DNA of 64,000 nucleotides, taken from positions 1 through 64,000 of the IMG/VR virus record IMGVR_UViG_3300002026_000069; one strand, given 5' to 3'. The translations under genes and the position numbers were made by a program. Positions 2,889-43,467 of this stretch are shown here, one piece after another (the first letter of the stretch is position 1; each line of letters starts with the position of its first letter). The stretch comes from a virus. The notes under the pieces were generated by a model. The model did not search any database and had not been told where the DNA came from. It saw only the letters and a program-made list of their open reading frames with translations.

Positions 2889-3634
2889 GTGCATATGGAT
2901 GCATCTATCTATTAACTAGTCCATCTGGCAAACATTATGTTGGTCAGACGATAGAGGATTTTGAATCGTATTTTCATACACAATATGTAGTTAGAAAAGG
3001 TTCTTGCAGAACCGCTCTATTCAATGCTATTAATAAGTACGGCATAGAAAATTTTACCAAGCAAGTTATCATAACTTGCATGACTAAAGAATCTTTGGAT
3101 CAGGCTGAGATAGATTCAATTAAAGAATACAATTCAATTGAGAATGGTTACAATATAAGAGAAGGAGGATCACATGGTAAGCATGCTCCGACTTCAAAGG
3201 TTTTCTCTGAAGAATATAGACAAAATATGAGTGAGATGATGAAGGGTAGAGTGTTTACGGAAGAGCATAAGCTTAAAATTAGCAATACATTAAAAAACAA
3301 TAAAATTGTTATTGAACAAATAACTAAACTAGGAAAATCCAATTCTGGAAAAGTCATTTCAGAAGAACAAAGATTACAAATTAGTAATACGCTAAAAGGA
3401 AATCAGAACGCATTTGGAAATAAATGGACAGAAGAGGCAAAGACTGCTTTTTCTAAGAAAAAAGAAGTTTATAACTATATTATAAAAGATCCAGACGGGA
3501 AAGAGCATCATTGCTCTAATCTAAAAAAGTTTTGTAGGGAGAATAATCTTCCGAAATCTAATCTTGTTATGGGAAAATATAAGGGTTGGATTCTCCTTTC
3601 TAAGATCATGTTAGATAAAGGAGAAGTTGTATGA
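2885..3634 (+). CDS. GIY-YIG homing endonuclease with NUMOD3-like repeats
   Basis: GCIY...HYVGQT, conserved E and GYN; SEEYRQNMS/TEEHKLKIS/SEEQRLQIS repeats. Confidence 0.9.
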   Translation: MSAYGCIYLLTSPSGKHYVGQTIEDFESYFHTQYVVRKGSCRTALFNAINKYGIENFTKQVIITCMTKESLDQAEIDSIKEYNSIENGYNIREGGSHGKHAPTSKVFSEEYRQNMSEMMKGRVFTEEHKLKISNTLKNNKIVIEQITKLGKSNSGKVISEEQRLQISNTLKGNQNAFGNKWTEEAKTAFSKKKEVYNYIIKDPDGKEHHCSNLKKFCRENNLPKSNLVMGKYKGWILLSKIMLDKGEVV

Positions 3635-20340: not shown

Positions 20341-21315
20341 GTGTCTAAAATCCTCACATCAGCCGTACACCCCCTGGCCTTGCGCTCAGCCCTATCTTCG
20401 ATTTTAGCTACCGTAGAAACGCCGCGTGGGCCTACGGCGAAGGTACTACGACCCCTCATTCGTGAAGTGGCGATTGCTGGTCATGGGTGGGCTAGATCAT
20501 TCCTTGGAGGGATAACTAAAACAGCATTTAAAATTGGATCTTATGATGTAGAGGAAGATTTAGATAAGATGTTGGATACATTAAAGGCTACCACGAAGGA
20601 ACGTAGTTATGTTAAAACTACACTCCCTCACGGTGGGCCAAGAATCATACATGGTCATAACAGAACAGTTGCCCGTACAGCAACGATGAACATCTACTGC
20701 AAATCATCGTTGAAAGAATACAAAGAAGATGGGTTGACACATGTTAGGAGAATGGAAGTTCATGATGATCGTACATCGCCCATCTGTCGTGTTCTAAACG
20801 GTACGATTCATCGTATCGACAAATTGTTGTCTTACGAACTTCCACAAAGTCACGATAGCCATCCAAACTGTCGCGGGACCTTCGTACCGTTTTTTGACGT
20901 TGGAGGCTACAAACCAATACATCGTGACATAGCCACTAAGATCAATTTTCTCAAATACGAAAACGCACCAAGGGAATTCGAACCTTGGCTTCGTGGAATT
21001 AACAAGCATATTACTTTTAATAAAGTTGTTTTTACTCCCAAAGTTCAAGGCGCAAAGGTTGAGGGGAATTTACTGTTTCTTAATTTAATAGACGAAACTG
21101 ATCCCCGCGATGTTATCCTTGAAGAGGAAGCAAAAAAGGTTTTTGATCCAAAGAAATTTAAAGAACTTGAGACTATGACTGAAGCTGGATTAATTCATCC
21201 AGAGAAAACTCACGAGACTCCTCTTGAACATTTCAGTCATTTATTCGTAGCTTATAAGTTAAACCAACTAGAAGATCCTGTGATCTATAGATGGTTCAAA
21301 AATAACAAGTTATAG
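20341..21315 (+). CDS. MuF / SPP1 gp7-like head morphogenesis protein
   Basis: VART; D.RTSPICRVLNG; HPNCRG. Confidence 0.8.
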   Translation: MSKILTSAVHPLALRSALSSILATVETPRGPTAKVLRPLIREVAIAGHGWARSFLGGITKTAFKIGSYDVEEDLDKMLDTLKATTKERSYVKTTLPHGGPRIIHGHNRTVARTATMNIYCKSSLKEYKEDGLTHVRRMEVHDDRTSPICRVLNGTIHRIDKLLSYELPQSHDSHPNCRGTFVPFFDVGGYKPIHRDIATKINFLKYENAPREFEPWLRGINKHITFNKVVFTPKVQGAKVEGNLLFLNLIDETDPRDVILEEEAKKVFDPKKFKELETMTEAGLIHPEKTHETPLEHFSHLFVAYKLNQLEDPVIYRWFKNNKL

Positions 21316-21388: not shown

Positions 21389-21673
21389 GTGGTTTCCTTT
21401 TGCGAAGTGATAGTAACAATAATATATGTTACTGAATTTAAAATTCTATATCTATTTATTATATCATAAAATTAATCTTTAAAATTCAAAAAACATATGC
21501 GAAGAGTCCTGAGAAAAAACCCCTCACCCTCACCGCCAAAAACACACAGCCCTCCCAACTTCCCCCAACCTCGCACGCGATAAGAGACTTTTTAACTTTT
21601 TTACAGATAGATAGATTATTATTATTATTATTACATATGTATTGTAGTATTGTATTCGGAAGGGTATATTGAC

Positions 21674-21894
21674 GTAAATACGTATCTAATACTAGACTTA
21701 TGGATTGTGAGAATTTGTGAATCGATGTAAATACGTATCTAATACTAGAGTTACAGATTATTTTACCTTACTTAGAAAAGTCCAAAAACACCCAAAAGTT
21801 GTAAATACGTATATAATACTAGGCTTATGGCTTTTGAGAAATAGGGTCAAAACACAGGTTTATTGTCTTAAATACGTATCTACTACAAGACTTA
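21674..21894. repeat. Four ~27-bp imperfect direct repeats (iteron-like)
   Basis: gTAAATACGTATcTAaTACtAGacTTA at 21674, 21727, 21801, 21868. Confidence 0.85.
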
Positions 21895-22018: not shown

Positions 22019-22045
22019 TTGAAATGCCTAGAAAAAGAATATAAT
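22019..22045 (+). promoter_or_regulatory. Class L-like promoter of RNAP, leaderless
   Basis: TTGAAA-15-TATAAT, ATG at 22052 is 6 nt downstream. Confidence 0.55.
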
Positions 22046-22051
22046 GTCCGT

Positions 22052-25000
22052 ATGCAAGAACCGTCAGTGATGTACGCTGAGTTGAAAAAGAAGATAATTG
22101 ATTCAATTCAGGCTATCTTTCCTGTTGAAGGCAAGAAAAACGTAATCTCAATTGGAGATATAGTAGTTAATGATGTAGATCCAGGAAATTATAGAGAACA
22201 GATGGATCTTAAGGCTAAGGGTGGAACTTTAGCTTCTCCTATTAATGCAACTGTAACTTTGAAAGATAAAGTTACAAATAAAGTAATTAATCAAGCCAAG
22301 ATGAAAGTTGGATCAGTTCCCCGTGTAACTGATCGTGGATCATACATTGTTGATGGAAATGAATATCAAGTTCCACATCAGCTTTTACTTCGTCCAGGCA
22401 TCTTCCATCGCGTTAAGGAAAATGGAGAGCTAGAAGCCTTCATTAACGTTAAGGGATTCCAGGCTAAAATTCTTTTTGATCCTGAGAAGTCTGTTTTCTT
22501 ACTTAGCTATGGAACAAATAACATTCAGCTACTTCCGTTACTCGTTGGCTTAGGAGTAACTGAAGATCAATTCGTTAAGGCATGGGGTAAGGAAACCTAT
22601 GACTTAATGAAAAAGAATTCGAAGTCTGATCCAGAATCAGAATTAGCCAAGCTAAATAAAGCATCTAACGGTCGCGCAACAACAGATGCGATGGCTGTAA
22701 ATATGTGGCTCAAGTCTTGGAAACTTGATGATAGGGTCACGAAGAAGACCCTACAGGGTCAGACTGACATATCTCCTACAACATTATTAGCCAGTTCGGC
22801 TAAACTTCTTGAGATTAACAGAGGTCATAGCGAACAAGACGAACGTGACTCATTAGAGTTTAAGTCGATTCATAGCGTTGATGATTTCATTAAGAATCGT
22901 TTCGTTCAGAATGCAAATAAGATCAAGGGTAAGATTAAGACGAATCTCGACATTCGTGAGAATGTGAAGCAGATTGTTTCTTCTGGATTACTGAGTGATC
23001 CTGTTCATAGTTTCTTCGTAGAATCATCTTTATCCAACACCACTGAACAAACCAATCACCTAAACATGTTAGGTGAGACTAATAAGGTTATTATCACTGG
23101 TGAAGGTGGCATTGAGAATGATCATGCAATTACTGACCAAGCCCGCATGGCCCATCCTTCTCAGCTTGGTTTTATTGACCCTGTTCATACTCCTGAGAAG
23201 CTTGTCGGTGTAGCTCAGCATCTTTCTGTTTTAGCTCATAAAGAGAATAACGATCTCTATTCGTATGTGTACGATACGAAGTCTAAAGCAACAAAGAGAG
23301 TTAGAGTTGATGATATCTCTAACGCAACTGTAAGTTTCGCTGATCAGTTTGATAAGAATTACAAGCCTAAGACAGATCAGGTATCTGCATCTGTTAAGGG
23401 TAAGTTTGGAATGATCGACTCTAATAAAGTCGATTTCATTCTTATCTCTGATAAGACAATGTTTGACTTTGCTACGAATCTCAGTCCATTCTTGCCTTCT
23501 AACTCTGGAAACAGGGCAGCATTCGCTGGTAAGCAACTTGAGCAGGCTGTTATTCTCAAGCATCGTGAAGCTCCACTTGTTCAGACTGAAATGAAGGATG
23601 GAGTTACATTTGAACAGAATCTCGGTAAGAGCTTTGCTTTAACTTCAAGAGAAGATGGAATCGTAACTAAGGTTACGAAAGACTCTATCTTCATTGGTAA
23701 AGATGAACACTTCTTCTACGATCACTTTCCTTTAAGATCAAAGCAATATCTTCACCATACACCTGTCGTAAAGGTTGGAGATAAAGTTAAGAAGGGTCAA
23801 GTAATTGCTGAATCAAACAGCAATAAAGATGGCGCTCTTGCTTTAGGAACTAACTTAAATACTGCATATGTTTCATATAAGGGTTACACCTTTGAAGATG
23901 GTGTGACGATTACAGAGCATGCCTCTCATAGACTAACTTCTGAGCATATGTATAAAGAAGAGATGGATATTGATGCTAATTCCATTCTCGATAAGAAACG
24001 CTTCTTGGCTATCTATCCAAATAAGTTCACTGCAAAGCAGATGGAAAAGATTGGATCGGATGGAATTGTTAAAGAAGGACAGATTCTAGAAGTTGGCGAT
24101 CCGATTTGTGTACATCTTCACAAGGAAGATTATACGAAGGAAGATGTTATACTTGCAGCTTTCAGAAAATCTTCAATAAAGCCTTTCAAGGATCGTTCGC
24201 ATATCTGGTCTGAAGAAGACAAGGGTAAAGTTCTTCGTGTCTATAAGAAGGCTAAATCCATAGAGGTTCAGATTCTTACTGAAGAACCTATGAAGGTAGG
24301 AGATAAGCTTGCTGGTCGCCATGGAAATAAGGGAATTGTCGTTAAGATTATTCCTGACAATGAGGCTCTTCATACTGAAGAGGGTAAGCGCATTGATGTT
24401 TATCTCGACCCTCACGGCATTCCAGGTCGTATTAATCCTTCACAGAATCTTGAACTAGCCGCTTCGAAGATTGCTGAGCATGAAGGTAAGCCATTCGTTG
24501 TAGATAACTTCTCTGGAAGAAACTTCCTACATGAGATTGATGATAAGCTTGATAAGCTAAAGATTAAAGATAAAGAATATCTCATTGATCCAGTAAACGG
24601 AAATAAACTAGATGCCCCAGTTCAAACTGGTAAGCAGTTCATCTTAAAGCTTGATCACTCAGTTCGTAAGAAGTTCTCTGCTCGCGCACAGGATGGCTAT
24701 TCATCTGACTTAACTCCATTACAAGGTGGTGGAGTTGGTGGACAGTCGATTGATAAGCTTACTCTTTATAGTTTGTTAGCTCATGGAGCTAATCATAATC
24801 TCAAGGAGATGACGACATATAAAAGTGAAAAAAGTGATGACTTCTGGAATGCATATCAATCTGGCTTACCGCTTCCTCCACCTAAAGTTCCATTTGTATT
24901 TGAAAAGTTTAGAGCAATGCTTGCGGCTTCTGGAGTGAATCTTCAGAAGAATGGTTCTAATATAGATTTAATTCCTGTTACAGAGCGACATGTAAAAGAG

Positions 25001-28000
25001 ATGTCGCATGGAGCTATCAACTCTCCATACTTAGTAAGAGCTAAAGATCTAGCCCCTGAAAAAGGCGGATTATTTGATACACCAAATCCTGACGCATGGA
25101 TGCATATTGAGCTTAATGAGCCAATGCCTATGCCGATGTATGAAGAAGCGATTCTTGCTCTGACTGGTCTGCGTAAAGCTGATCTTGATGCCATACTAAG
25201 TCATCAGAAGTTTGTTCTTGCTAACGGAGAGATATCTGAGGATGAAACAAAAGGAATCTCTGGAGGCAAGGGACTTAAGAGAATTCTTGATTCACTAGAT
25301 CTTGATGTAGAAAGAATTAAGCTTACGGCTCTAGCTAAGAAGGCTGAAGGTTCTGAGCTTGATAAGATCAATCGTAAACTTAAGTATATTATAAATCTCA
25401 AGAAGAATGATCTAAAGTTGTCAGACTACATGACAACGAAGATTCCTGTTATTCCAACAAAGTTTAGAACCATTATCGAACAGAAGAATGGCTCAATCAT
25501 CACACCAGATGTGAACCAGCTTTATGCTGATATCATCAAGGTGAATAACCAACTTGGTAATATCGGACATCTTCCTGATTCAGAGAAGGCAAACCTACGC
25601 AAAGATCTCTATCAGGGCATGAAGGCTCTGGTTGGAACTGGCGATGCATTAACTAAAAAGGGAAGCCGTGATTGGAAAGGATTCGTTAAACAGATTGCCG
25701 GATCAAGTCCTAAATTTGGATTCTACCAACACAAGGTTATTTCTAAGCGCCAGGATTTTACCGGACGTTCGACTATTATTCCCGAACCAGAATACGGACT
25801 TGATGAAGTCGGAATTCCATTCGACATGGCATGGGAGATTTATCGTCCCCACGTTATTAAAGCCCTTGTTCGTCTCGGTTACAAGCCCATTGATGCGCGT
25901 AACGCAGTAGAAGAGAGAACTGAGATAGCCAAGCGTGCATTAGAGAATGAAGTCAAGGAACGTCCAGCGATTATCAATCGTTCGCCATCGCTACATAAGT
26001 TTAGCGTTATGGCTTTCCAACCGAAGTTAATCGAAGGCAAGGCTATTAAGATTAATCCTCTCGTTGTTGGCGGATTCAACGCTGACTTCGATGGCGATAC
26101 AATGTCTGTACATGTTCCTGTGTCAGAAGAAGCTCGTAAAGAAGCTTTCTTGATGATGCCTTCGAATAACTTGTTTAATCCACAAAGCAATTCTCTGGAA
26201 CATAAGCCATCCAAAGAACAAGTCAGCGGGCTTTACATGCTGACGCTACCACCTGTGTCAGTAACACCTAAGAAGGTTTACAACAACATCTCTGAGCTAA
26301 AATCTGACTATAAAGCTCTTAAAGTTAGTGTCAGAGATGTTGTTGTTGTAAATAAAGTTGTTAATACTGTTGGCCGTCATCTAGCTAATGATTCATTGCC
26401 AGCTAAGTATCAATCTAAAGATATTGTATTAGATAAGAAGGGGCTATCTACATTATTAGATAAAATAGCTCATGATGATCCAAAAGATTACGGCCCAATC
26501 GTTTCAAGACTCAAGGATCTTGGAAACGCAGCTTCTTACTCTTCTGGAGTGAGCTTTGGCATTAAAGATCTTCGCTTAGCCAATCCGAATATCATCAAGA
26601 ATGAGTTCCTTCGTATGGAGAAGGAACTTATCAAGGCTAAAGATCCTGTTAAGTGGGTTCAGGACTTCGCAGCTAAGGATATGAAAGATTCTATTATCCT
26701 TAAAGAGGTTCACAAGGATCTTAAGGATAAAGATTCTGGACTCTATCATCTCGTTCAATCTTCTCTATCAGGCAAGAAGAACCAAGTCGAACAGATGCTT
26801 GCTGGTCCAATGTTCGTTACTGACCACAATGGCGAACCAGTTCCAGTTCTTATCAAGAACTCATACGCTGACGGATTATCTGCTTCAGAATACTGGACAA
26901 CGATGGCTGGTGTTCGTAAGGGCATGATGGATCGTGCGCTTGAAACCATGGACACTGGTGCTTTCTCTAAGGAAGTTATTAACTCTGGATTATATGGAAA
27001 GATAACAGAGAAGGATTGTGGAACAGACGAAGGTATCTCTGTATCAATTAAAGATAAAGCCGTTCATTATCTTGATCGCTTTACAGCTAAGGGAAATGCT
27101 GGAATTAAAGTAAATACCTTAGTTACTAAAGAATTACTAAAAACATTTAAAGGTGAATTCATTAGAGTTCGTTCGCCTCTAACATGCAAGGCCAGAACAC
27201 AGCCATGTGCTATGTGCTTTGGATTAAAAGAGAACGGCAAGCTTCCTGATGTTGGTGACAATATTGGTGTAACCGCCGCTCAATCACTTGCTGAGCCTTC
27301 CGTTCAGCTTGGTATGAGAACTTTCCACTCTGGCGGTGCAGTTGGAGCGCAAAGCATCTCTGGATTCGATAGAGCTAAGCAGCTTGTTGAATTACCAAAG
27401 ATTGTTCACGACAAAGCTGCATTAGCTGAAAGCTCTGGAACAGTATCGAAAGTCTCAGAAGCTCCACAGGGAGGCCATTACATCTCTGTTGGAGGAAATG
27501 TTCAGTTCTCTATGATGAAACCAATCGTCAAAGAAGGCGATAAGGTAAAGAGAGGCGATGCTCTTTCATTAGGAAACATCAAGCCTCAAGTTCATTAGGA
27601 AACATCAAGCCTCAAGAACTTGCTGAACTCAAGGGAACGCTTGATGCGAAGCAGTATATCGTTAATGAAGTTGTTAAGCTCTACGAAGATGCTGGAAGAA
27701 CTATTCGCCGTCCATTAGTAGAGACTGCCATTGGTCAGGTGATTCGTTACGCTCAAGTCGTTGATCCAGGTGATAGCGAAACAACCATTGGTGATTACTT
27801 ACCAGTGAATGAGATTGAGTTTAGGAACAGAACTCTTAAGAAGAAGATCACTTACAAGGAAATGGTGAAGGGAATCACTTACAAGGAAATGGTGAAGGGA
27901 ATTGGCCTTGCACCATTCATGCATAATGACTTCCTTGCTCGCTTGAACTTTGAGAGAATTCCCGAAGTCATTCAGAGGGGCGCTGCACAAGGATGGAAGT

Positions 28001-28128
28001 CCGAACTTTCAGGAACGCATCCTATACCTGGATATGCATTTGGAGCAGAATTTAATCAATTACCTACGGCTGGAGCTAAACTTCCAGAGAAGAAGGTAGA
28101 AATGCCAATTCTATTCAAGAAGAAATAA
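22052..28128 (+). CDS. rpoBC: Single-chain fused beta-beta' DNA-directed RNA polymerase (~2010 aa; frame broken at 27565-27616 by a 26-bp duplication)
   Basis: Beta: GSYIVDGNE, HPSQLGFIDPVHTPE, GYTFED, GDKLAGRHGNKG, PHGIPGRIN, KLDH..KKFSAR. Beta': KRQDFTGRSTI, NRSPSLH, catalytic NADFDGD, DCGT, RSPLTC..CAMCFG, AAQSLAEPSVQLGMRTFH. Deleting one repeat copy joins 22052 to 28128 in frame. Confidence 0.95.
27565..27616 (+). repeat. Exact 26-bp tandem duplication, frameshifting
   Basis: TTCATTAGGAAACATCAAGCCTCAAG x2. Confidence 0.95.
27847..27900 (+). repeat. Exact 27-bp tandem duplication, in frame
   Basis: ATCACTTACAAGGAAATGGTGAAGGGA x2 (ITYKEMVKG x2). Confidence 0.95.
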
Positions 28129-28130
28129 TA

Positions 28131-28916
28131 ATGATAGATAAGATAGCTGATGCCATCTCTCAGCTTCGTCGCATGGCGATGAAGAAGAATCGTGGATTGT
28201 TTCCAAATTTAGGACATCAAGCTAGAACCGATGCGGTTAGAGAATCTATATATAAAAACAATAATCATTTAGTATCTGAATATCCTGTAGGCACTAAACA
28301 GAAACCTGGGACTGTTTTTAGAGGGGAAAGCGAGAAAGGAAGGGGACTTTCCTATACGATGAATAGAGATAGAGGGGTTAAGTTCCAAGAGACAAAAAAG
28401 AGATTTTGGACAACTGATCCACACTTCGCTATAGCTTATGGAGATAATGGTCCTAAGTCTAGAGTTTTAGTTGGAAAAGTTCCTCTTAATAAAAGAGTTT
28501 ATCCAAAAGAATCAGCAGACCCTAAAGTTCAAAGAATAACAGATGGACGCAAGGTTGTTAATAAATTCATAGAAGATGCAAAAGGCGATAAATCGAGAGC
28601 ATTAAAGATGCTTGATAAAAGCGAAGCATCTAGACAATATAGAGATGCGGAACGAACAGTTTCTTCTTTAGAAGAAGCTAAAGGTGGAGTTACAGCTAAG
28701 AGACTCCAAGATTGGAAGAATAAACACTTAAATAATTCAAGTTTTGCAACTGATCTATCTCAGCCTACAGAATTAACAAGATTAAAGAATGCTAAAAGTG
28801 AAGTAGCAAAAAAGCACATTTTATCAGACGATAGAAAAATGTGGAGAACTAATTCTGGAAATACGATAGGCACTCAAGGTCTTCGTAAGACAGATATGTT
28901 TAGACCATCTAATTAA
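28131..28916 (+). CDS. Basic protein with ADP-ribosyltransferase-like motifs; putative virion cargo
   Basis: MIDKIA leader; TVFRGE...FWTTDPHFAIAYG...VLVGKV. Confidence 0.45.
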   Translation: MIDKIADAISQLRRMAMKKNRGLFPNLGHQARTDAVRESIYKNNNHLVSEYPVGTKQKPGTVFRGESEKGRGLSYTMNRDRGVKFQETKKRFWTTDPHFAIAYGDNGPKSRVLVGKVPLNKRVYPKESADPKVQRITDGRKVVNKFIEDAKGDKSRALKMLDKSEASRQYRDAERTVSSLEEAKGGVTAKRLQDWKNKHLNNSSFATDLSQPTELTRLKNAKSEVAKKHILSDDRKMWRTNSGNTIGTQGLRKTDMFRPSN

Positions 28917-28947
28917 TTAATATATAACATATGATATATTTAAACAA

Positions 28948-30021
28948 ATGAGTGATAATCAAGATTTACTTAATCTTCTAAACGAAGCAATCAAGAAAAA
29001 GCTCTTATCTATAAAAGATAAAGACAATCTCATTTCATCGATCAACGCTGGCGTAGAAAAGAAATCTGAATATATTAATCACATGGAATCAACTTCAGAT
29101 CAGTTGAAGAAGCCAATGTCATTCGCTAAGAAGACACTTCTTAGTGCAGGCGGCTTAGCTGTTCTGTCTGGATTGGTTAAACCTGGAACATTAGCCAAGA
29201 ACCTCATGGTTAATAGAGCGCATGTAACTGCTCTTAAGAATGCTAAAGAAAAGATTGTAAATCACTATGATGATTTAATTTCCGCTGTTCAAGCTTCCGC
29301 AAAGGCTAAAGATAAAGCATTGGATAAGGCTTGGATTCTTAGGAATAAACGTAAACTATGGAATGAAACTGAACACGGAATAAAGCAGATAAAACTTCAA
29401 TCCGATACGGTTCAGGATATTATTAGAGCAGAGAATGATATCTCTAAGAATAGAGATAAGCTAATTGCTGAATTACCTTGGGCAACTAGAAATCTAGATA
29501 AGTTAGATGTTATATTACCTACTTTAGGTGCTATGTCTGTAGCTGGAACTCTTATGACTAAAAAAGCAGAGAAAGAACTTCCTTTCCAAGCTACAAAAGA
29601 ATCACAAGAGCTTCCAAAAGTCCTCATTAGACCAGATCTGGTTAAAGAGCCTACGTATTATACGAGAGGCTTTCAATCAGGTCCTATCATAGAGAATGCA
29701 AATAAAATGGATAAAATCGCATCCCTGGAAAAGATTGCTGAAGCAGTTAATTCTCTCTTCCCTAAAGTTCCAACTGATCCAAGAGACATTCAGTTAGAGC
29801 AGCAAGAGAAAGTCCTTTCTAAACAAGAGAAGGGCATTATTAAGCGTGATGAAATGCTCGCTCAGCATGAGCAGGCTCATGAAGAGAAAGACATGAAGCT
29901 TAAAGAGCTTCAGAAGGCCATCAAGCAAGTTAACGGACAAGCCCAGGCTTACAGAGCTAAGGCTATTGAACATTTTACGAATTCACTAGATGCTGAAGTA
30001 GCTGGAACTCCTGGTAGATAA
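28948..30021 (+). CDS. Putative head-internal protein with hydrophobic segments and coiled coil
   Basis: DKIASLEKIA, TKKA; two Gly/Ala hydrophobic stretches. Confidence 0.5.
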   Translation: MSDNQDLLNLLNEAIKKKLLSIKDKDNLISSINAGVEKKSEYINHMESTSDQLKKPMSFAKKTLLSAGGLAVLSGLVKPGTLAKNLMVNRAHVTALKNAKEKIVNHYDDLISAVQASAKAKDKALDKAWILRNKRKLWNETEHGIKQIKLQSDTVQDIIRAENDISKNRDKLIAELPWATRNLDKLDVILPTLGAMSVAGTLMTKKAEKELPFQATKESQELPKVLIRPDLVKEPTYYTRGFQSGPIIENANKMDKIASLEKIAEAVNSLFPKVPTDPRDIQLEQQEKVLSKQEKGIIKRDEMLAQHEQAHEEKDMKLKELQKAIKQVNGQAQAYRAKAIEHFTNSLDAEVAGTPGR

Positions 30022-30022
30022 A

Positions 30023-31330
30023 ATGCTATTCCAGTCAGAAGCTCAACGTCGTTATCTTTGGGCTAAGCATCCGAAGATTGCTCAGAAGTGGGCCGACGAG
30101 GAAAAGATTTCTCGTCGTAAGAGAAAAATTAATCCAGATCTTGCTCTTGGTTCAGGCCAAAGTCGTTTTACTACATATGATCCTCTTGTAGATAAGGTAC
30201 TTTCAAAAGTAGCTGAGTTACGCGTAGAACGTGGACTTCTTTCAAATACCGTTAAGGTAGATGGTCAGGATTATAAAGTTAATGAAGGCTATTTAAAGCC
30301 AGCCTTAGTCGGTGCTGGTGCAGCCGCTTTAGTCCATGGATTAATTGGCATATTTCAGCATGGAGCGAATAGAAAGGTTCTCTTTGATTCATTCAAGTCA
30401 GGAATACCTGGAGCCATTGCTGGATTAGCTTTAACTGAGGCTAAGAGAAGATCAATCGAAGGCATACTTAATTCAGATCCAACATCAGCTAGATCGTTAG
30501 CTAAAAAAGGATTTGACATAAAGCCTCGTACTACGAGTGAGTTTGGAAAGATTCAAAGAGATTTATCCACACATCTTCCAGGTGTTGTTAGAGATTCTTT
30601 CCATGTAACTGGAATTGAATCGTTAGCGGAAGAAGGTTTAAAGGTATCGTCTTTGGATGAATCCAAGATGATAGCCAATTTGGATGATGTTGAAGACAAG
30701 GCGCATCACATGCATCTTGTCTATGAGGGATCGACTTTAGCTGCGGTATTAGCTGATTCTTCAAAACCTGAAAAATTCAAACAGATAATGTCTGAAGTAT
30801 CGAATCCAAGCACTGTATATCTAGTTGCTCCAGCTTCATATAAAGAAGGTACTAAATTATTTACATTCGATGAATGGAACAAGAGATTTCCAGAGGATGT
30901 AAAGAAGTACAGCCAAAAAATGATTGATGCTGTAAAACAACATGGAGTTGTTTTAGTAGCGCCATCAGATGTAAATAAAGCTGCAATTCTCAGAGAATTA
31001 TCTAGATCAAGAGATTCAAAGCTGAAGTTCATAGAAGAACTTCCAAATAATAGGGCTTTTAAAGCTTTAAGTAAAGCGAATATTATTTATTCTCTAGCTG
31101 CAAGATCGGATGATCGTGTTGCTGATGCTTCTGCTGGCGCTCAGTTTGCAATGTATATTCCTAGAGTTCTTAGTGATATTAAAGCTACTGTAGGAGCCAA
31201 TAAACTAAGTAAGGGAACATTGTTTAAGAATATTGCATTCACATCAACTAGAGCTATTCCAGGCTTACTCCCTGCTGCTGGAAGAGCGTTTAGAAAATAT
31301 CAAGACAAGCCATTATCTAAAAAAGAATAG
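30023..31330 (+). CDS. Putative head-internal protein
   Basis: N-terminal FQSEAQRRYLWAKHPKIAQKW motif, which I recognise from small phage proteins; SKVA; glycine-zipper segment. Confidence 0.5.
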   Translation: MLFQSEAQRRYLWAKHPKIAQKWADEEKISRRKRKINPDLALGSGQSRFTTYDPLVDKVLSKVAELRVERGLLSNTVKVDGQDYKVNEGYLKPALVGAGAAALVHGLIGIFQHGANRKVLFDSFKSGIPGAIAGLALTEAKRRSIEGILNSDPTSARSLAKKGFDIKPRTTSEFGKIQRDLSTHLPGVVRDSFHVTGIESLAEEGLKVSSLDESKMIANLDDVEDKAHHMHLVYEGSTLAAVLADSSKPEKFKQIMSEVSNPSTVYLVAPASYKEGTKLFTFDEWNKRFPEDVKKYSQKMIDAVKQHGVVLVAPSDVNKAAILRELSRSRDSKLKFIEELPNNRAFKALSKANIIYSLAARSDDRVADASAGAQFAMYIPRVLSDIKATVGANKLSKGTLFKNIAFTSTRAIPGLLPAAGRAFRKYQDKPLSKKE

Positions 31331-31331
31331 C

Positions 31332-31367
31332 CATATGGAGTTGTTAACTCCATATGGTTTTTCTTTT
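31332..31367 (+). terminator. Terminator between convergent genes
   Basis: CCATATGGAGTT/AACTCCATATGG plus T tract. Confidence 0.8.
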
Positions 31368-34708: not shown

Positions 34709-35422
34709 ATGGCAAGTTTTATTTGTGTAGGAAGAACTTTTTTATCTACATATGAGCCAAGGTGGACATCTACACCTTTGTATACGCAAGAATTGCCTAC
34801 ATTCTATCTTCCAGATGTTCCAGGCAATGATGAATCATCCACTTTACCATGGATGAGATATAACACGCAGTTATTATCTACACCGATAATGATTCCTGGT
34901 TTTTCGGGTTTGATGGCTATTCCAACGGAATTTCCTCAATTACCTGATGACTTTTGGTTTGCGTTTAAGCCTAGTTTAATTTCCTATTTAACTATTCATG
35001 TTACGTATCCCAATCCAGATCCAATTGATGCTTTGATAAACCCACTTGTAACAGTTGATCAGCATATAGCTCAAGGATTACCAGACTTAGATCCAACTAT
35101 AGTTCCCATTGAACAATGGTTTAGAATCAATGGTCAGCCAGTTGTTACCGCTGGAGACATAATAACATTGGTTTGGAGTGGAAATTATGCAATTCCAGTT
35201 CCAGTTCCAGTTGGACTCGATATTCCTGCAATTACGCCTTTGATGCCTTATCCTCCTTATGATCCAACATGGTCATCTTATTATCCAGTTACAGCTACTA
35301 TAACCGGAGCTTCTCATTGGAAGGTAAACGGTAAACCAATGGCACAAATGGGAATATCAATGGCACCACCCTTAGCTGTTAACTTTTTTTCTGGACAAGC
35401 GTTTCCTTTCTTCTCAGCTTGA
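34709..35422 (+). CDS. PAAR-like spike-tip protein with Pro-rich insertions
   Basis: FRINGQPVVTAGD and ITGASHWKVNGKPMAQMG; follows spike gene. Confidence 0.55.
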   Translation: MASFICVGRTFLSTYEPRWTSTPLYTQELPTFYLPDVPGNDESSTLPWMRYNTQLLSTPIMIPGFSGLMAIPTEFPQLPDDFWFAFKPSLISYLTIHVTYPNPDPIDALINPLVTVDQHIAQGLPDLDPTIVPIEQWFRINGQPVVTAGDIITLVWSGNYAIPVPVPVGLDIPAITPLMPYPPYDPTWSSYYPVTATITGASHWKVNGKPMAQMGISMAPPLAVNFFSGQAFPFFSA

Positions 35423-36030
35423 ATATGAATCACTACGGTTGTATTTACGGACTATTATCACCATCTAATAAATGGTATATAGGACAGACTACTTGTATTG
35501 ATCCAATGAGATATATTACAATTACATATAAGTATGGAAAGGGTGCAGGGAGATGTAAAATTCAAAATGCTATTAATAAATATGGATTCGATTCGTTTAA
35601 GATTTTTATATTTGTTTATTTAGAAGATTCCAAATCTCTAGATTTAGCGGAAACTGGATTCATAGAGCTTTATGATTCTATATCGTATGGTTATAATATA
35701 AAGTTAGGAGGATGTAGTTCTAAGATGTCCGAAGAGACTAAAGAAAAGCTTAGGATCTCGCATACTGGAAAGGTATGTAGTCTAGATACAAGAGAGAAGA
35801 TGAGAAATTCTAGGATAGACTACCTAAGTAATATCTCAAAAGATATTTTAAGTAAAAGATCAGAGAAATATGAGTATGAAGTAAGGAAGCCGGATGGTGA
35901 GTTGATATACACTACGAATCTTTTACAATTCTCAAGAGAAAATAATATTAGATCTAATCATCTCTCGGATAGAGGAATAAGTAGGGGTTGGCGTCTTATA
36001 TCTAAGAAGTCGTTAGACTTGATAGTTTAA
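35419..36030 (+). CDS. GIY-YIG homing endonuclease with NUMOD3-like repeats
   Basis: GCIY...WYIGQT, GYNIKLGG, SEETKEKLR; paralog of 2885..3634. Confidence 0.9.
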   Translation: MNMNHYGCIYGLLSPSNKWYIGQTTCIDPMRYITITYKYGKGAGRCKIQNAINKYGFDSFKIFIFVYLEDSKSLDLAETGFIELYDSISYGYNIKLGGCSSKMSEETKEKLRISHTGKVCSLDTREKMRNSRIDYLSNISKDILSKRSEKYEYEVRKPDGELIYTTNLLQFSRENNIRSNHLSDRGISRGWRLISKKSLDLIV

Positions 36031-38737: not shown

Positions 38738-39042
38738 ATCTAGAACTTATTGAAGATGCAATTGAGAAGATTGCCGATGGTGCCGCTATGGCTAGGAAGG
38801 CTTTAGGATCGGCTAAATTAATTAAACCTGACACTCAACTCTCTAAGGGTCTTATTACACAAGGAGAGCATAGGAGTAAAATTAAAACTATGCTTTCATC
38901 TGCAAGACTACAGAGAGATAGTAAAGCTGGTAAATTAGCTCCTTTGGGTTCTGGTCATAAAGCGTACCCAGGTGTATATGAAGCTCCAATTAAATATGAA
39001 CACGATGTATCAAGACCTGGATTCTTAAAAGTAATTAAATGA
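38734..39042 (+). CDS. Leader-bearing basic protein
   Basis: MNLELIEDAIEKIA leader. Confidence 0.65.
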   Translation: MNLELIEDAIEKIADGAAMARKALGSAKLIKPDTQLSKGLITQGEHRSKIKTMLSSARLQRDSKAGKLAPLGSGHKAYPGVYEAPIKYEHDVSRPGFLKVIK

Positions 39043-40433
39043 AACCCATCCCAGGCTTCCCTGGCTATCACATCTCTGAGGATGGTAAAATTACCAATCC
39101 TAAAGGGAAGTTGTTAACCAGAAAGGATGCCTGGGAAGGTTATCCAAGAGCGCGTCTAAAGAACGAAGAAGGTAAGTTCGTTAATAGAAAGATTCATCGT
39201 CTTGTAGCCTTGGCACATCTTGGCGTTAACGACGGTGAGATTCGTCATAAAGATAACAACAGAGCTAATGTAGCCGTTCATAATCTTGAGTGGGGAGATA
39301 GATTCTCAAACGCTCAAGATAGATTAGCTCGCGGGTCATATCATCTAAAGACAAAGCTTGTGGGTGGGAAAAGCCTACTTGTCTTAGGTGACGATAAGTA
39401 CCTAGATCCTGAAGCTAAGAAAGTTTATAAGGTTACTGATCATCCTATTGGCGAAGAAGGTGTGATACCTGTAACATCATTAGAGAAGGTTGCATATTAT
39501 CGTAAATATGCTCTCATTGATTTAGATACAGGAAAAATTCAAAGTGGATTAAATACATATGTTAATTCTGAAGAGTTTAGAAAAAGGCATATAGAGAAGA
39601 AGGCTTTCCTACGTCGTTTTTTAAAACCAAATGTAGCTGAACATGCATTTGATGCCGTATCCAGCGTTCAACTGCCTGGAGGTATGATTGGCAATGCAGT
39701 GACATCTGCAAAGCATGCTTATCAAGGCATTAAACCACATTTAGGTGGACCTGAAACATTACTTACTAAGAAGAAGATACTTAAGCCATCACCTGTATTT
39801 AAGGGACTTAACATCCCGTCTGTTCAGCACGGAGTTTACACAAAGAGAGGACTAAAGGAAGTAACTGCTTCTAAGCTATATCCAGAAGCTCATGAGTTAC
39901 TATTTAATAGATTTACTCCTATAGAGCTATTAAAGGGTATTAAGAATAATCGTAAGTTTGACGGTAATTCCATTGATTATATTAAAGCCAACTTCCATCC
40001 AAGGAAGCTTGTAGATAAAGCTAACGCTGGTCATGAAGAGGCAAGAAAACTCGTAAAAGAGTTTGACTATGCAAGATCTGGCTTTGTTAAGAAAGCCGAA
40101 TGGACTTCCAAGAAGAACGCTGATAGTCACGCATTAAAGCATGCAGATGAAATGGGATTAACAAAAGAGCAATATATTGCTCTGGCTAAATCAGCATTGA
40201 ATGATAAGAAGTCTTTAATTAGCATTAGGGGTGATATACATAAGTCTCGTCATGGTAAGAATATTTTAGTTCATAAAGATGGAAAAGTAATTACTTATTA
40301 CTCAAAAGTGGCTTACATTCGTAAAATTAAGAAGGGACTAGAGAGAGGTATTGATAACTTCCAAGATTGGGGTTATCATCAGGATGTCATTCAAACACAT
40401 CAAGATATCAAAGAGAAGCGAAAGAAGAAATAG
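39039..40433 (+). CDS. NUMOD4-HNH endonuclease fused to further modules
   Basis: KPIPGFPGY.IS..G; HRLVA; HKDNNRAN...NLEW; later modules bounded by EKVA, EKKA, KKA, KVA. Confidence 0.75.
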   Translation: MKPIPGFPGYHISEDGKITNPKGKLLTRKDAWEGYPRARLKNEEGKFVNRKIHRLVALAHLGVNDGEIRHKDNNRANVAVHNLEWGDRFSNAQDRLARGSYHLKTKLVGGKSLLVLGDDKYLDPEAKKVYKVTDHPIGEEGVIPVTSLEKVAYYRKYALIDLDTGKIQSGLNTYVNSEEFRKRHIEKKAFLRRFLKPNVAEHAFDAVSSVQLPGGMIGNAVTSAKHAYQGIKPHLGGPETLLTKKKILKPSPVFKGLNIPSVQHGVYTKRGLKEVTASKLYPEAHELLFNRFTPIELLKGIKNNRKFDGNSIDYIKANFHPRKLVDKANAGHEEARKLVKEFDYARSGFVKKAEWTSKKNADSHALKHADEMGLTKEQYIALAKSALNDKKSLISIRGDIHKSRHGKNILVHKDGKVITYYSKVAYIRKIKKGLERGIDNFQDWGYHQDVIQTHQDIKEKRKKK

Positions 40434-41931: not shown

Positions 41932-43467
41932 GTGAAGCCATCTACCCTTGCTCAAAAGATGTTGTCCCTTAAGGGTGGACCTTTAGACCTGAGAGGCAGA
42001 CCATATCTCAAAGATGTATATGATTCAGATGCACAGAGAGTTCTCTTAAAGTTTGGCCGTCAGTCTGAAAAGTCTACTACTTTAAGTGCTAAAATAACAT
42101 TAAATACAGCGTGCATCCCATACTTTAATACGCTGTTCGTTTCGCCTTCAGCTTCTCAGACGAAAGACTTTAGTAATGATCGTCTAAATCAGTTCATGAA
42201 GAATAGTGATTATATTGTAGATAATCTATTCGACCAAACATGTACTGATAGAGTAGATCAAAAGTCTCTTTTAAATGGTTCGAATGTATATCTGAGATAT
42301 GCATTCCATAACGCTGACAGAACCCGTGGTATATCTGCTGATCAGGTAGTTCTTGATGAGCTTCAAGATATTCGAACTGATAATATTTCGGTTATTGAAG
42401 AATCTGCGTCTCACTCTGAGAGAGGTTTAAAGGGTCATCCATATAAGTCTTTCATCTTCGCAGGCACTCCTAAGACTACGAATAACTCAATGGAGTTCTT
42501 TTGGCGTAGATCCTCAATGCGTGAGTGGGGTATTAAATGCGAAGGTTGCGGACATTGGGCATTAGAACTCTCTACAAAGAACATTGGTAAAGAGTATCTT
42601 ATATGCGAGAAATGCGGACATAGACTATATCCTCAAACTGGACGCTGGATTATCACGAATCCAGGTGCAGCTATTGAAGGATATCATATTTGTCAGTTAG
42701 CCGTTCCTTGGCTTGATTGGCAAAAAGACATTCTATTCAAATTAAATACCTATCCTCAGAATCGTTTCTATAACGAGGTTCTCGGGCTATCATACGATAG
42801 CGGTTCTAAGCCGTTAACCATGGCTCAACTTCGTCAATGCTGTAATCCTGATCGTAAGGATTGGTGGAAGCATGATGAAGGATATATACCAAGACCTTTG
42901 TTTGCTGGGATAGATTGGGCTTTAACAGCAGAGAAGTCCTTTACTATCCTAACCATAGGCGCTTGGCTTCCATTCCCTGAGAAGTTTGTTATTCTCTATC
43001 AGAAGAAGTATGAGGCTAATCTAGACCTACTCCAGCAAATTGAAGATATTAAGCTCGTTTGCGACCAATACGGCGTAGATCTTATTGGAGCGGATTGGGG
43101 TGCTGGTGTTCATAGTAACTTAAAGCTTATTGAACACTTCGGTTCCGATAGGGTTGCTCAGTATTATAACTCTGGATCTCAGAAGAACCGCATTCAGTGG
43201 AATGATAAGCGTCAGATGTTTACGATTAGCAGAACAACGGTAATGACAGATTTGTTTAACTATATACAAAAGTCTCGTATTGAATGGCCAGCATATGAAG
43301 TCTGTCAGGGATTCCTAACTGACTTCCTGAATGAAGATATCGAATACAATAAAGATGGTGTATTGTATTACGATCACAATCCAGATAGTCCTGATGATGC
43401 TATTCACTCGACTATGTATTGTATGTTAGCTGGAGAACTATTCTATACGAATAGGGGTAATAGCTAA
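41932..43467 (+). CDS. terL: Terminase large subunit
   Basis: Walker A GRQSEKST, Walker B VVLDE, coupling motif GTPK, CxxC..CxxC, nuclease GIDW and PDDAIH; TTGAAT-16-TAGTAT leaderless promoter. Confidence 0.92.
   Translation: MKPSTLAQKMLSLKGGPLDLRGRPYLKDVYDSDAQRVLLKFGRQSEKSTTLSAKITLNTACIPYFNTLFVSPSASQTKDFSNDRLNQFMKNSDYIVDNLFDQTCTDRVDQKSLLNGSNVYLRYAFHNADRTRGISADQVVLDELQDIRTDNISVIEESASHSERGLKGHPYKSFIFAGTPKTTNNSMEFFWRRSSMREWGIKCEGCGHWALELSTKNIGKEYLICEKCGHRLYPQTGRWIITNPGAAIEGYHICQLAVPWLDWQKDILFKLNTYPQNRFYNEVLGLSYDSGSKPLTMAQLRQCCNPDRKDWWKHDEGYIPRPLFAGIDWALTAEKSFTILTIGAWLPFPEKFVILYQKKYEANLDLLQQIEDIKLVCDQYGVDLIGADWGAGVHSNLKLIEHFGSDRVAQYYNSGSQKNRIQWNDKRQMFTISRTTVMTDLFNYIQKSRIEWPAYEVCQGFLTDFLNEDIEYNKDGVLYYDHNPDSPDDAIHSTMYCMLAGELFYTNRGNS

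What the first reader, a model, noticed from the sequence alone, without database searches (positions are those of the whole stretch)
22052..28128. Minimal single-chain beta-beta' RNA polymerase among virion genes
Seen: all core beta and beta' motifs lie in one ~2010-aa frame with a seamless junction (...FRAMLAASGVNL...VKEMSHGAI...). The beta' N-terminal zinc-binding domain is gone (PEKGGLFD runs almost directly into HIEL with no Cys), while the second Zn site and trigger loop remain. No alpha, omega or sigma gene is recognisable in this window. Known: bacterial beta plus beta' total ~2700 aa; phiKZ/AR9 enzymes are split into several chains; fused rpoBC occurs in Helicobacter and Wolbachia. 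Inference: this is a compact phage enzyme with bacterial-like motifs. It is expressed from a structural-type promoter next to cargo-like genes, so it may be virion-packaged.
Basis: partly seen in the sequence, partly recalled or inferred. Interest (0 to 1): 0.8.

Follow-up and report, generated by a model that had tools for sequence, protein, structure and literature searches.

The report
Single-chain phage RNA polymerase, frame-broken
An uncultured large phage encodes both catalytic subunits of a bacterial-type RNA polymerase as one slimmed-down protein, a member of a large and apparently undescribed phage enzyme family, but in this contig a 26-base duplication, probably an assembly error, breaks the gene near its end.

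Summary
The motifs are real. From ATG 22052 the frame carries the beta modules, then a gap-free junction (24958/24959), then the beta' modules. The beta' N-terminal zinc ribbon is missing. The second zinc site, bridge helix and trigger loop are kept.

It is not one open frame. A perfect 26-nt tandem duplication (27565-27616) stops it at 27598. Removing one copy gives 2016 codons ending at 28128, colinear with an intact 2005-aa relative (83% identical).

The contig holds four perfect duplications. The three not divisible by 3 each break an ORF, so I suspect assembly artefacts.

The protein belongs to a large phage family: over 120 protein clusters and over 500 IMG/VR loci, in 178-205 kb genomes. 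Each of five relatives' genomes checked (93-100% complete) has one polymerase gene, set between portal and terminase. Five complete genomes show no alpha or omega, and several relatives carry sigma-like genes.

On beta' trees the family lies outside 13 bacteria from six phyla, so it is not a recent capture.

The nearest isolates are Salmonella phage Arash and Vibrio phage D69, which have two chains. Arash virion proteomics detected the polymerase and a sigma, which supports packaging only indirectly.

I found no paper describing the fused form. This scan has already reported the family on other DNA.

The parts
22019..22045 (+). Promoter-like site: TTGAAA (22019-22024), 15-nt spacer, TATAAT (22040-22045), then 6 nt to ATG 22052. 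There is no Shine-Dalgarno sequence, so the mRNA would be leaderless.
   Evidence: Read directly. The same TTGAAA-15-TATAAT-6-ATG layout is kept in the closest relative L183, although the surrounding upstream DNA does not align. The TTG that the ORF listing used as a start (22019) is the -35 hexamer.
22052..24958 (+). Beta module (aa 1-969): lobe and protrusion remnants, fork region, flap, beta double-psi barrel (GDKLAGRHGNKG at 24299-24334), C-terminal clamp helix.
   Evidence: Pfam Rpb2_3 and Rpb2_6. BLASTP to E. coli RpoB residues 84-224, 404-881 and 1048-1338. E. coli inserts SI1, SI2 and 1123-1176 have no counterpart.
24128..24175 (+). Flap-tip helix equivalent (DYTKEDVILAAFRKSS).
   Evidence: Aligns with E. 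coli beta 895-910. A helix in the AlphaFold model at model residues 48-56, with lower pLDDT.
24959..28128 (+). Beta' module (aa 970-2016 after removing one copy of the 26-nt duplication). As deposited, the frame shifts at 27591-27616.
   Evidence: Pfam Rpb1_1, _2, _3 and _5. BLASTP to E. coli RpoC 78-939 and 1137-1346. Foldseek top hits are bacterial beta' chains, probability 1.00.
25055..25114 (+). Site where the beta' N-terminal zinc ribbon is missing (PEKGGLFDTPNPDAWMHIEL, no Cys).
   Evidence: E. coli beta' 68-99 has no counterpart in this protein, 16 family members, Arash or D69. The family consensus is PEKGGLFDPxxTGGxxGxKWxHIxL. The model shows only short loops there, pLDDT 87-92.
25508..25639 (+). 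Clamp helices (the coiled-coil that docks sigma in bacteria).
   Evidence: Aligned to E. coli beta' 264-306. Helical hairpin H505-522/H528-546 in the model, pLDDT above 90. The positions of E. coli R275, E295 and A302 are V, L and G here.
26078..26104 (+). Catalytic NADFDGDTM motif.
   Evidence: D1356, D1358, G1359, D1360 and T1361 (P0001 numbering) are invariant in 45 family members.
27008..27223 (+). Second zinc site: C in EKDCGTDEG, and three C in LTCKARTQPCAMCFG.
   Evidence: Aligned to E. coli C814, C888, C895 and C898. Nearly invariant in the family.
27275..27340 (+). Trigger loop N-terminal arm (…QLGMRTFHSGGA); the SI3 insert is absent.
   Evidence: The model has helices 1090-1112 and 1123-1136, with a low-confidence tip at 1119-1122.
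27565..27616 (+). Perfect 26-nt tandem duplication that shifts the frame and creates the stop at 27596-27598.
   Evidence: TRF: 2.0 copies, 100% identical. Removing one copy restores a single frame. The closest relative L183 has a 26-nt gap here.
27847..27902 (+). Perfect 27-nt in-frame tandem duplication (ITYKEMVKG twice).
   Evidence: TRF. Absent from P0003/L183.

Best explanation
This is the gene for a single-chain, bacterial-type, two-barrel RNA polymerase of an uncultured tailed phage whose full genome is probably about 180 kb. Beta (about 969 aa) is joined directly to beta' (about 1047 aa).

Shown:
- The chain keeps the catalytic core: both double-psi barrels, NADFDGD, bridge helix, trigger loop and second zinc site.
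- It also keeps the flap-tip helix and the clamp coiled-coil.
- It lacks the beta' zinc ribbon and the lineage-specific inserts of E. coli.
- It belongs to a large phage-only lineage with one polymerase gene per genome. That lineage has no recognisable alpha or omega, and often has its own sigma70-type genes.
- It lies far outside the sampled bacteria.
- In this contig a perfect 26-nt duplication interrupts the frame 168 codons before the end.

Inferred:
- The duplication is an assembly or sequencing artefact, and the phage makes the full 2007-2016-aa protein.
- The covalent join replaces the alpha-dimer scaffold that bacteria use to assemble beta with beta'.
- The enzyme starts at -35/-10-type promoters with a phage sigma. 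That sigma is not on this 55% fragment.
- The enzyme is loaded into the capsid and injected, so it starts phage transcription independently of the host. New copies then carry on.
- It is insensitive to rifampicin.
For: Identity: Pfam domains; E. coli alignment and feature map; AlphaFold model of residues 660-1859 as one chain, pLDDT 85.6 and pTM 0.77, with the junction as a confident beta-hairpin; Foldseek top hits are all bacterial beta'.

Family: over 120 clusters of 1985-2170 aa, plus intein-bearing forms; at least 509 IMG/VR loci; 45-sequence alignment without Cys at the zinc-ribbon site.

One polymerase per genome: the beta' barrel family (PF00623) matches only the fused frame in five relatives' genomes, 93-100% complete.

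No alpha or omega in five complete genomes.

Sigma70_r2/r4 matches over the Pfam cut-off in G001, G002, G006 and Arash.

Not bacterial: 13 bacteria and the phage clade lie on opposite sides of a branch (SH-aLRT 100), joined by roughly 1.6 changes per site. Identity to bacterial beta' is 27-31%. E. coli beta' is 47-54% identical to that of other phyla.

Artefact: all four perfect duplications of 15 nt or more in the 100-kb contig lie in this window. The three not divisible by 3 each break an ORF, and removing a copy lengthens it. The closest relative lacks both duplications in this gene.

Packaging: conserved portal...RNAP...TerL order. In Arash virion MS, Gp206 had 3516 spectra (the most of any protein), Gp216 had 1210, and sigma Gp10 was present.

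Promoter: TTGAAA-15-TATAAT-6-ATG, conserved in L183.

Rifampicin pocket: Q513N, D516E, H526E, R529K, S531I, L533T.
Against: - No sigma-like gene was found on this contig by Pfam, BLAST or phmmer.
- Three complete relatives show no sigma hit at E 0.1 or better.
- The positions of three E. coli beta' residues I recall as needed for sigma70 docking (R275, E295, A302) are V, L and G here. A sigma-less mechanism is therefore not excluded.
- Packaging evidence comes from a relative about 32% identical. Its virion preparation listed 116 proteins, including ribonucleotide reductases, and its authors raise carry-over as a possibility.
- Without reads I cannot prove that the duplication is an artefact.
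- The three genes just downstream (28131-31330) are not conserved next to the polymerase in other family members, so no partner subunit is evident.
Confidence: 0.6

Rival explanations
1. The polymerase is not carried in the virion. Host RNA polymerase with sigma70 reads the consensus-like promoters early. The phage enzyme is made after infection and takes over middle or late genes.
For: The promoter in front of the gene is close to the host sigma70 consensus. The Arash virion list holds many non-structural enzymes, and its authors mention carry-over of abundant proteins. No capsid-targeting extension is visible: the N-terminus aligns from residue 1 with the family.
Against: Gp206 is the most-detected protein in Arash particles, ahead of the major capsid protein, and sigma Gp10 is detected too. 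The gene sits between portal and terminase across the family. With only one polymerase gene per genome, it cannot be the post-infection partner of a second, packaged phage polymerase as in phiKZ.
Confidence: 0.3
2. The 26-nt duplication is real. This genome carries a broken polymerase gene: a defective variant, or an 1848-aa truncated protein with or without a separate C-terminal piece.
For: The sequence as deposited has the stop at 27596-27598. A GTG-started ORF at 27739-28128 exists. Natural splits of beta' are known: in Arash/D69 at about residue 1434, and in cyanobacteria (my knowledge).
Against: A restart at 27739 would drop about 45 residues that are conserved in the two closest relatives (ELAELKGTL...RRPLVETA). 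The closest relatives are intact. The contig has three more perfect duplications, two of which also break ORFs. That pattern is unlikely in a viable phage and typical of assembly joins. The copies have 0-2 nt of flanking microhomology, which does not suggest replication slippage.
Confidence: 0.2
3. The fused chain is only a core that needs host alpha, omega and host sigma70 to assemble and initiate, as the fused RpoBC of Helicobacter does.
For: No alpha, omega or sigma gene on this contig. The promoter resembles the sigma70 consensus. The flap-tip helix and clamp coiled-coil are retained.
Against: Relatives encode their own sigma-type proteins, and one was found in Arash virions. The positions of E. 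coli R275 and E295 in the clamp helices are not conserved. At 27-31% identity to bacterial subunits, conserved alpha contacts are doubtful. phiKZ and AR9 enzymes work without alpha or omega (PMC7598289, abstract, and my knowledge).
Confidence: 0.15
4. It is a recently captured bacterial rpoBC, a host gene in a phage or a bacterial contaminant.
For: Bacterial-type motifs. Fused rpoBC occurs in bacteria, and one was seen here in a Paceibacterota MAG.
Against: A long separate stem on the trees. Only 27-31% identity to any bacterial beta'. Over 500 phage-contig relatives with portal and terminase neighbours. Only 1 of the best 80 loci kept from the scan of 185,579 species genomes is a true member, and it lies on a 204-kb phage-sized contig.
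Confidence: 0.02

Closest known systems
RNA polymerase of Salmonella phage Arash (Gp206 + Gp216; OQ632216.1; PMC10585845) and of Vibrio phages D69/D181/D148
   Same: Same beta-to-beta' junction. Same loss of the zinc ribbon. Same DFDGD-type core. Homologous portal and terminase (27-31% identity). About 31-32% identity over the polymerase. They group with the fused family at SH-aLRT 100. Arash virion MS detects the enzyme.
   Different: Those enzymes are two chains: beta plus the beta' N-half (about 1525 aa), and a separate beta' C-half (about 606 aa). In the isolates the polymerase directly follows the portal and a small gene. Here it is one chain, and 16 kb separate the portal from the polymerase. 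The Arash record and the passages of its paper I read label Gp206 as the beta subunit and Gp216 as beta' and do not mention the fusion.
mReC phages (Weinheimer and Aylward 2020, PMC7481178)
   Same: Uncultured large tailed phages with sequence-recognisable beta and beta' that branch outside cellular polymerases. Some of their subunits are similarly compact (beta about 1000-1019 aa, beta' about 887-904 aa).
   Different: Every mReC row in the part of the supplementary table I read lists beta and beta' as two proteins, and some contigs have two sets. The paper uses 'fused' only for crAssphage. No Gp23-type capsid match (PF07068) on this contig. I could not place this protein on a tree with mReC sequences.
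Fused RpoBC of Helicobacter and Wolbachia (my knowledge), and of a Paceibacterota MAG seen here
   Same: Beta C-terminus joined to beta' N-terminus in one polypeptide. The Paceibacterota example has a linker of about 10 aa.
   Different: Those are ordinary cellular orthologues. The Paceibacterota protein is 47-55% identical to E. coli and keeps a zinc-ribbon segment. They work with alpha, omega and sigma in a cell (my knowledge). The phage family is 27-31% identical, lacks the ribbon and is about 270 aa shorter.
phiKZ / AR9 multisubunit phage RNA polymerases (PMC7598289)
   Same: Phage-encoded relatives of bacterial beta/beta' that work without alpha and omega. One of their two sets is virion-packaged.
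   Different: There, beta and beta' are each split into two or more chains. There are two polymerase sets per genome and no sigma70-type factor (PMC7824862). Here there is one chain and one set, and relatives have sigma-type genes.
Single-chain virion polymerases of crAss-like phages (phi14:2 gp66) and Thermus phage P23-45 gp96
   Same: One polypeptide holding both barrels, carried in the virion.
   Different: Those have no sequence similarity to bacterial beta/beta' beyond DFDxD (PMC7481178). This protein matches six Pfam beta/beta' domains strongly, and its best structural matches are bacterial beta'.

Membership tests
Bacterial-type two-barrel RNAP catalytic core (beta/beta') | Beta double-psi barrel with the GDK..GRHGNKG motif, and Rpb2 domains | tested here: met
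   Pfam Rpb2_6 (4.8e-53) and Rpb2_3; motif at aa 750-761.
Bacterial-type two-barrel RNAP catalytic core (beta/beta') | Beta' barrel with NADFDGD, bridge helix, trigger loop | tested here: met
   Pfam Rpb1_2 and Rpb1_5; alignment to E. coli; model helices; Foldseek probability 1.00 to bacterial beta'.
Bacterial-type two-barrel RNAP catalytic core (beta/beta') | Beta' N-terminal zinc ribbon (E. coli C70, C72, C85, C88) | tested here: not met
   E. coli beta' 68-99 has no counterpart and the segment has no Cys. The same holds across the family.
Bacterial-type two-barrel RNAP catalytic core (beta/beta') | Second zinc site (E. coli C814, C888, C895, C898) | tested here: met
   All four Cys aligned and nearly invariant in the family.
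Bacterial RNAP holoenzyme (alpha2-beta-beta'-omega-sigma) | Alpha and omega subunits encoded or used | tested here: inconclusive
   No PF01000 or PF01192 match on this contig or in five complete relatives. Use of host alpha or omega cannot be tested with these tools.
Bacterial RNAP holoenzyme (alpha2-beta-beta'-omega-sigma) | Sigma70-family initiation factor | tested here: inconclusive
   None on this 55% fragment. Over the cut-off in G001, G002, G006 and Arash; weak or absent in six other genomes. The clamp helices are present, but the positions of E. coli R275 and E295 are changed.
Fused beta-beta' phage RNAP lineage (no published name found; Arash and D69 are its nearest isolates) | Direct beta C-end to beta' N-end junction, and the PEKGGLFD...W.HI.L segment in place of the zinc ribbon | tested here: met
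   83% identity to P0003 and 64% to P0004.
Fused beta-beta' phage RNAP lineage (no published name found; Arash and D69 are its nearest isolates) | One uninterrupted chain of about 2000 aa | tested here: not met
   As deposited, the frame stops at 27598. It is met only after removing one copy of the 26-nt duplication.
Fused beta-beta' phage RNAP lineage (no published name found; Arash and D69 are its nearest isolates) | Placement inside the clade on a beta' tree, and portal/TerL neighbourhood | tested here: met
   Clade at SH-aLRT 100. Portal homologue in 65 of 80 loci and TerL in 46 of 80. The window's own portal is at 3631-5508 and TerL at 41932-43467.
mReC (Weinheimer and Aylward 2020) | Separate beta and beta' proteins, each 800 aa or more, on one contig | tested here: not met
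   Here one fused gene carries both. The part of the mReC table I read lists two proteins per set.
mReC (Weinheimer and Aylward 2020) | Gp23-type capsid (PF07068), and grouping with the mReC RNAP clade | tested here: inconclusive
   No PF07068 match on the 100-kb fragment.
phiKZ/AR9-type phage RNAPs | Beta and beta' each split into several chains; two sets per genome | tested here: not met
   One match on this contig. One beta' barrel per genome in five relatives, 93-100% complete.
Virion-packaged RNA polymerases | Protein present in purified virions | not testable with these tools
   Only indirect: Arash Gp206, Gp216 and Gp10 in virion MS, and the position in the head module.

The most novel reading that the evidence does not exclude
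The family is a minimal, self-sufficient bacterial-type transcription machine. It is one roughly 225-kDa chain that needs no alpha or omega. It pairs only with a phage sigma, is packaged in the capsid, passes through the tail and refolds to start transcription in the host. The covalent beta-beta' join would then be the adaptation that lets a cellular-type polymerase be injected and reassembled.
Probability: 0.35. Interest if true: 0.8.

Novelty: new variant of a known kind. Interest (0 to 1): 0.6.

Why it matters
Bacterial RNA polymerase needs an alpha dimer to bring beta and beta' together, and its beta' zinc ribbon is important for function in E. coli (my knowledge). Here a natural, widespread lineage dispenses with both in one chain about 730 residues shorter than E. 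coli beta plus beta'.

If the chain is active alone or with one phage sigma, it would be the simplest bacterial-type polymerase available for structural and mechanistic work. It would also be a compact, probably rifampicin-insensitive expression tool.

It also bears on how phages gain independence from host transcription, and on the origin of the two-chain enzymes of cultured phages such as Arash. Those phages can be grown, so the ideas are directly testable.

For this contig, the practical point is that the gene call is truncated by a probable assembly error. Three other duplications in the contig need the same caution.

Tried and rejected
I reached the closest relatives' contigs through a metagenome scan instead.
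- A megablast of 10 kb against isolated phages found nothing.
- The search for related loci with the single protein found no IMG/VR relative. The alignment query did.
- PHROGs and Pfam left nearly all neighbouring genes unnamed. The three genes after the polymerase are not conserved partners.
- I searched this contig for a sigma with Arash and relatives' sigma proteins, by BLASTP and phmmer. Nothing scored better than E 0.098.
- The 'shorter' homologue search was meant to find unfused relatives. All 11 of its hits that I put on the tree fell among bacterial beta' sequences.
- I rejected programmed frameshifting or a functional split at the 26-nt duplication, because relatives lack the duplication.
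- I rejected TTG 22019 as the start codon, because it is the -35 hexamer and relatives begin at the MQ.P Met.
- The four 21-nt repeats upstream are not a general promoter motif. They occur nowhere else in the contig or in IMG/VR.
- The consensus promoter scan of 14-34 kb found no more sites than shuffles did (51 against 55.3). The 'structural-type promoter' class rests on position, not on counts.
- Paper searches for a fused phage rpoBC found no description.
Full report
**Where the window lies.** The window is the first 64 kb of a 100,160-bp linear IMG/VR virus contig that CheckV rates 55% complete. G+C content is about 39%. Most genes lie on the + strand and have no named family.

**The frame.** Under table 11 the largest ORF runs 22019..27598 (1859 aa from TTG, 1848 aa from ATG 22052). 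A separate frame covers 27544..28128.

The sequence shows why. TTCATTAGGAAACATCAAGCCTCAAG occurs twice in perfect tandem at 27565-27616. Deleting one copy gives a single frame of 2016 codons from ATG 22052 to the stop at 28126-28128. It reads ...GDALSLGNIKPQELAELKGTLDAKQYIVNE... and is colinear with the intact 2005-aa protein P0003 (83% identical) and with P0004 (2028 aa, 64%).

At the DNA level the P0003 contig (L183, 76% nt identity over 6.1 kb) has a 26-nt gap there. It also lacks a second perfect 27-nt in-frame duplication at 27847-27902.

The 100-kb contig has exactly four perfect tandem duplications of 15 nt or more: 26, 27, 49 and 65 nt. All lie in this window. The three not divisible by 3 each interrupt an ORF. 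Removing a copy of the 49-nt and 65-nt duplications lengthens the open frame from 622 to 726 aa and from 180 to 206 aa. The copies have 0-2 nt of flanking microhomology.

I read this as an assembly or sequencing artefact, with about 65-80% confidence. Only the reads can settle it.

**What the protein is.** Pfam finds Rpb2_3 and Rpb2_6, then Rpb1_1, _2, _3 and _5. Against E. coli:
- Residues 52-965 align with RpoB 84-1338.
- Residues 957-1979 align with RpoC 78-1346, at 26-30% identity.

A MAFFT alignment with 16 family members, Arash, D69 and E. coli RpoB+RpoC shows the following.
- The last beta helix and strand (VPFVFEKFRAMLAASGVNLQKNGS) run directly into the first beta' strand (NIDLIPVTERHVKEM).
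- E. coli beta' 68-99, the zinc ribbon, has no counterpart in any family member. Here PEKGGLFD is followed by five residues and then WMHIEL.
- E. coli beta segments 221-353, 934-1045 and 1123-1176 are absent. So is the beta' segment 946-1099, apart from a short aligned stretch. These correspond to the inserts I know as SI1, SI2, beta-i11 and SI3.
- Kept: flap-tip helix, lid, clamp helices, rudder, NADFDGD(TM), bridge helix, the four Cys of the second zinc site and the trigger loop (MRTFH).

AlphaFold2 on residues 660-1859 with a 45-sequence alignment gave pLDDT 85.6 and pTM 0.77.
- The junction is a confident beta-hairpin (model residues 314-327).
- The ribbon site is a short loop.
- The clamp helices form a helical hairpin.

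Foldseek's best matches are all bacterial beta' chains. The sequence search of solved structures also returned only bacterial beta' chains as best matches.

In the rifampicin pocket, the positions of E. coli Q513, D516, H526, R529, S531 and L533 are N, E, E, K, I and T. From the known resistance positions I infer insensitivity.

**The family.** The protein search returned over 120 clusters of 1985-2170 aa, all carrying both beta and beta' domains. Longer intein-bearing forms also appeared. They come from contigs of up to 217 kb.

An alignment-based scan of IMG/VR confirmed at least 509 loci. A metagenome scan added 48 more, including the two closest relatives.

In five relatives' genomes (178-205 kb, 93-100% complete), the beta' barrel family (PF00623) matches only the fused frame, so each phage has one polymerase. 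In one of them the frame looks split under table 11, but all four internal stops are TGA. One of these falls on the family's invariant Trp, so that phage reads TGA as Trp.

Gene order is conserved. A portal homologue lies upstream in 65 of 80 loci and the large terminase downstream in 46 of 80. In this window the portal is at 3631-5508 and TerL at 41932-43467. Both are 27-31% identical to those of Salmonella phage Arash.

**Isolated relatives.** The phage collection holds no fully fused form. The best hits are Vibrio phages D69, D181 and D148, and Salmonella phage Arash, at about 31-32% identity. In D69 and Arash, beta plus the N-half of beta' is one protein of about 1525 aa, and the C-half is a separate protein of about 606 aa. 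They share the junction and the missing ribbon.

**Not a bacterial capture.** I built two beta' trees (IQ-TREE, LG+C20+F+G4, SH-aLRT).
- With 51 rows, the fused proteins plus Arash/D69 form a clade at 100, and the 33 fused rows form one side of a branch at 90.
- With 13 bacteria from six phyla, bacteria and phage enzymes lie on opposite sides of a branch at 100. They are joined by roughly 1.6 changes per site, far more than the distances between bacterial phyla.
- Whether the two-chain form arose from within the fused clade is not resolved.

E. coli beta' is 47-54% identical to that of other phyla. This protein is 27-31% identical to any bacterial one. Of the best 80 loci kept from the scan of 185,579 species genomes, only one is a true member. 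It is a 204-kb contig binned with a Bacteroidales MAG.

**Partners.**
- This contig has no Sigma70_r2, Sigma70_r4, alpha-NTD or omega match. It also has no homologue of relatives' sigma proteins.
- Five complete relatives lack alpha and omega too.
- Sigma70-type genes exceed the Pfam cut-off in three relatives and in Arash. They are weak in three genomes and undetected in three. In one relative the sigma lies 3 kb downstream of the polymerase.
- The clamp coiled-coil is kept. The positions of E. coli R275, E295 and A302, which I recall as needed for sigma70 docking, are V, L and G. A co-evolved phage sigma therefore seems likelier than host sigma70.

**Expression.** TTGAAA-15 nt-TATAAT lies 6 nt before ATG 22052, with no Shine-Dalgarno sequence. 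The same layout is kept in L183, where the rest of the upstream DNA has diverged beyond alignment. This argues for a real -35/-10 promoter and a leaderless mRNA. No terminator-like site follows until 31329-31359, so the three unnamed downstream genes may be co-transcribed.

**Packaging.** For this phage there is only context. In Arash, LC-MS of phage particles gave the following spectral counts (PMC10585845):
- Gp206: 3516 spectra, the most of any protein.
- Gp216: 1210 spectra.
- Sigma Gp10: 467 spectra.

That list holds 116 proteins, including ribonucleotide reductases. The authors allow that abundant proteins may have been carried over. I put packaging at about 55%.

**Literature.**
- The mReC paper describes large phages with deep-branching beta and beta'. 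The part of its supplementary table I read lists the two as separate proteins, and it uses 'fused' only for crAssphage.
- In the passages my term search returned, the jumbo-phage review covers split phiKZ-type and YonO-type enzymes and no fused beta-beta' form.
- Searches for fused phage rpoBC found nothing.

I therefore call the fused, ribbon-less, sigma-associated single chain a new variant of a known kind.

**Earlier notes of this scan.** This scan has already reported the same family on other DNA. My results agree with those notes. One first-reader note says the architecture matches mReC. The table I read does not support that.

Noticed in passing
window 21675-21889 (+): Four direct copies of a 21-nt motif, TAAATACGTATCTAATACTAG (0, 0, 1 and 2 mismatches; starts spaced 53, 74 and 67 nt apart), lie in the 700-nt gap upstream of the polymerase gene. 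They occur nowhere else in the 100-kb contig or in IMG/VR, and are not kept in the closest relative. They could be tandem promoters, operators or iterons.
   Followed up: partly
window 47759-47888 and 57962-58060: Perfect 65-nt and 49-nt tandem duplications each interrupt an ORF. Removing one copy of the 49-nt unit merges open frames of 168 and 622 aa into 726 aa. This is the same kind of probable assembly artefact as in the polymerase gene.
   Followed up: partly
L064 10157, 10463, 11027, 12839 (G002, 205-kb IMG/VR genome): The polymerase frame of this relative has four in-frame TGA codons and no other stops. One falls on the family's invariant Trp (DEY*RD against NDExW). This phage therefore probably reads TGA as Trp (code 4).
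   Followed up: partly
L166 163-7017 (Candidatus Paceibacterota MAG, DATJQA010000074.1): A bacterial-type rpoB and rpoC fused in one 2284-aa frame, 47-55% identical to E. coli, with a linker of about 10 aa. The zinc-ribbon segment has only three of the four Cys.
   Followed up: partly
window 20341-21315 (+): The gene just upstream of the polymerase has a Mu F / SPP1 gp7-like minor head protein domain (PHROGs, E about 1e-8). The same neighbour is kept in the closest relative L183.
   Followed up: partly
window 35419-36030 and 39039-40433 (+): GIY-YIG-type and HNH-type homing endonuclease genes sit between the polymerase and the terminase. Many family members also carry inteins inside the polymerase gene (PF14528, PF14890).
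   Followed up: no
window 21500-21570: An unusually C-rich stretch (ccctcaccctcaccgcc...ccctcccaacttcccccaacc) lies in the intergenic gap. Part of this region (21563-21651) weakly aligns with L183 327-410.
   Followed up: no
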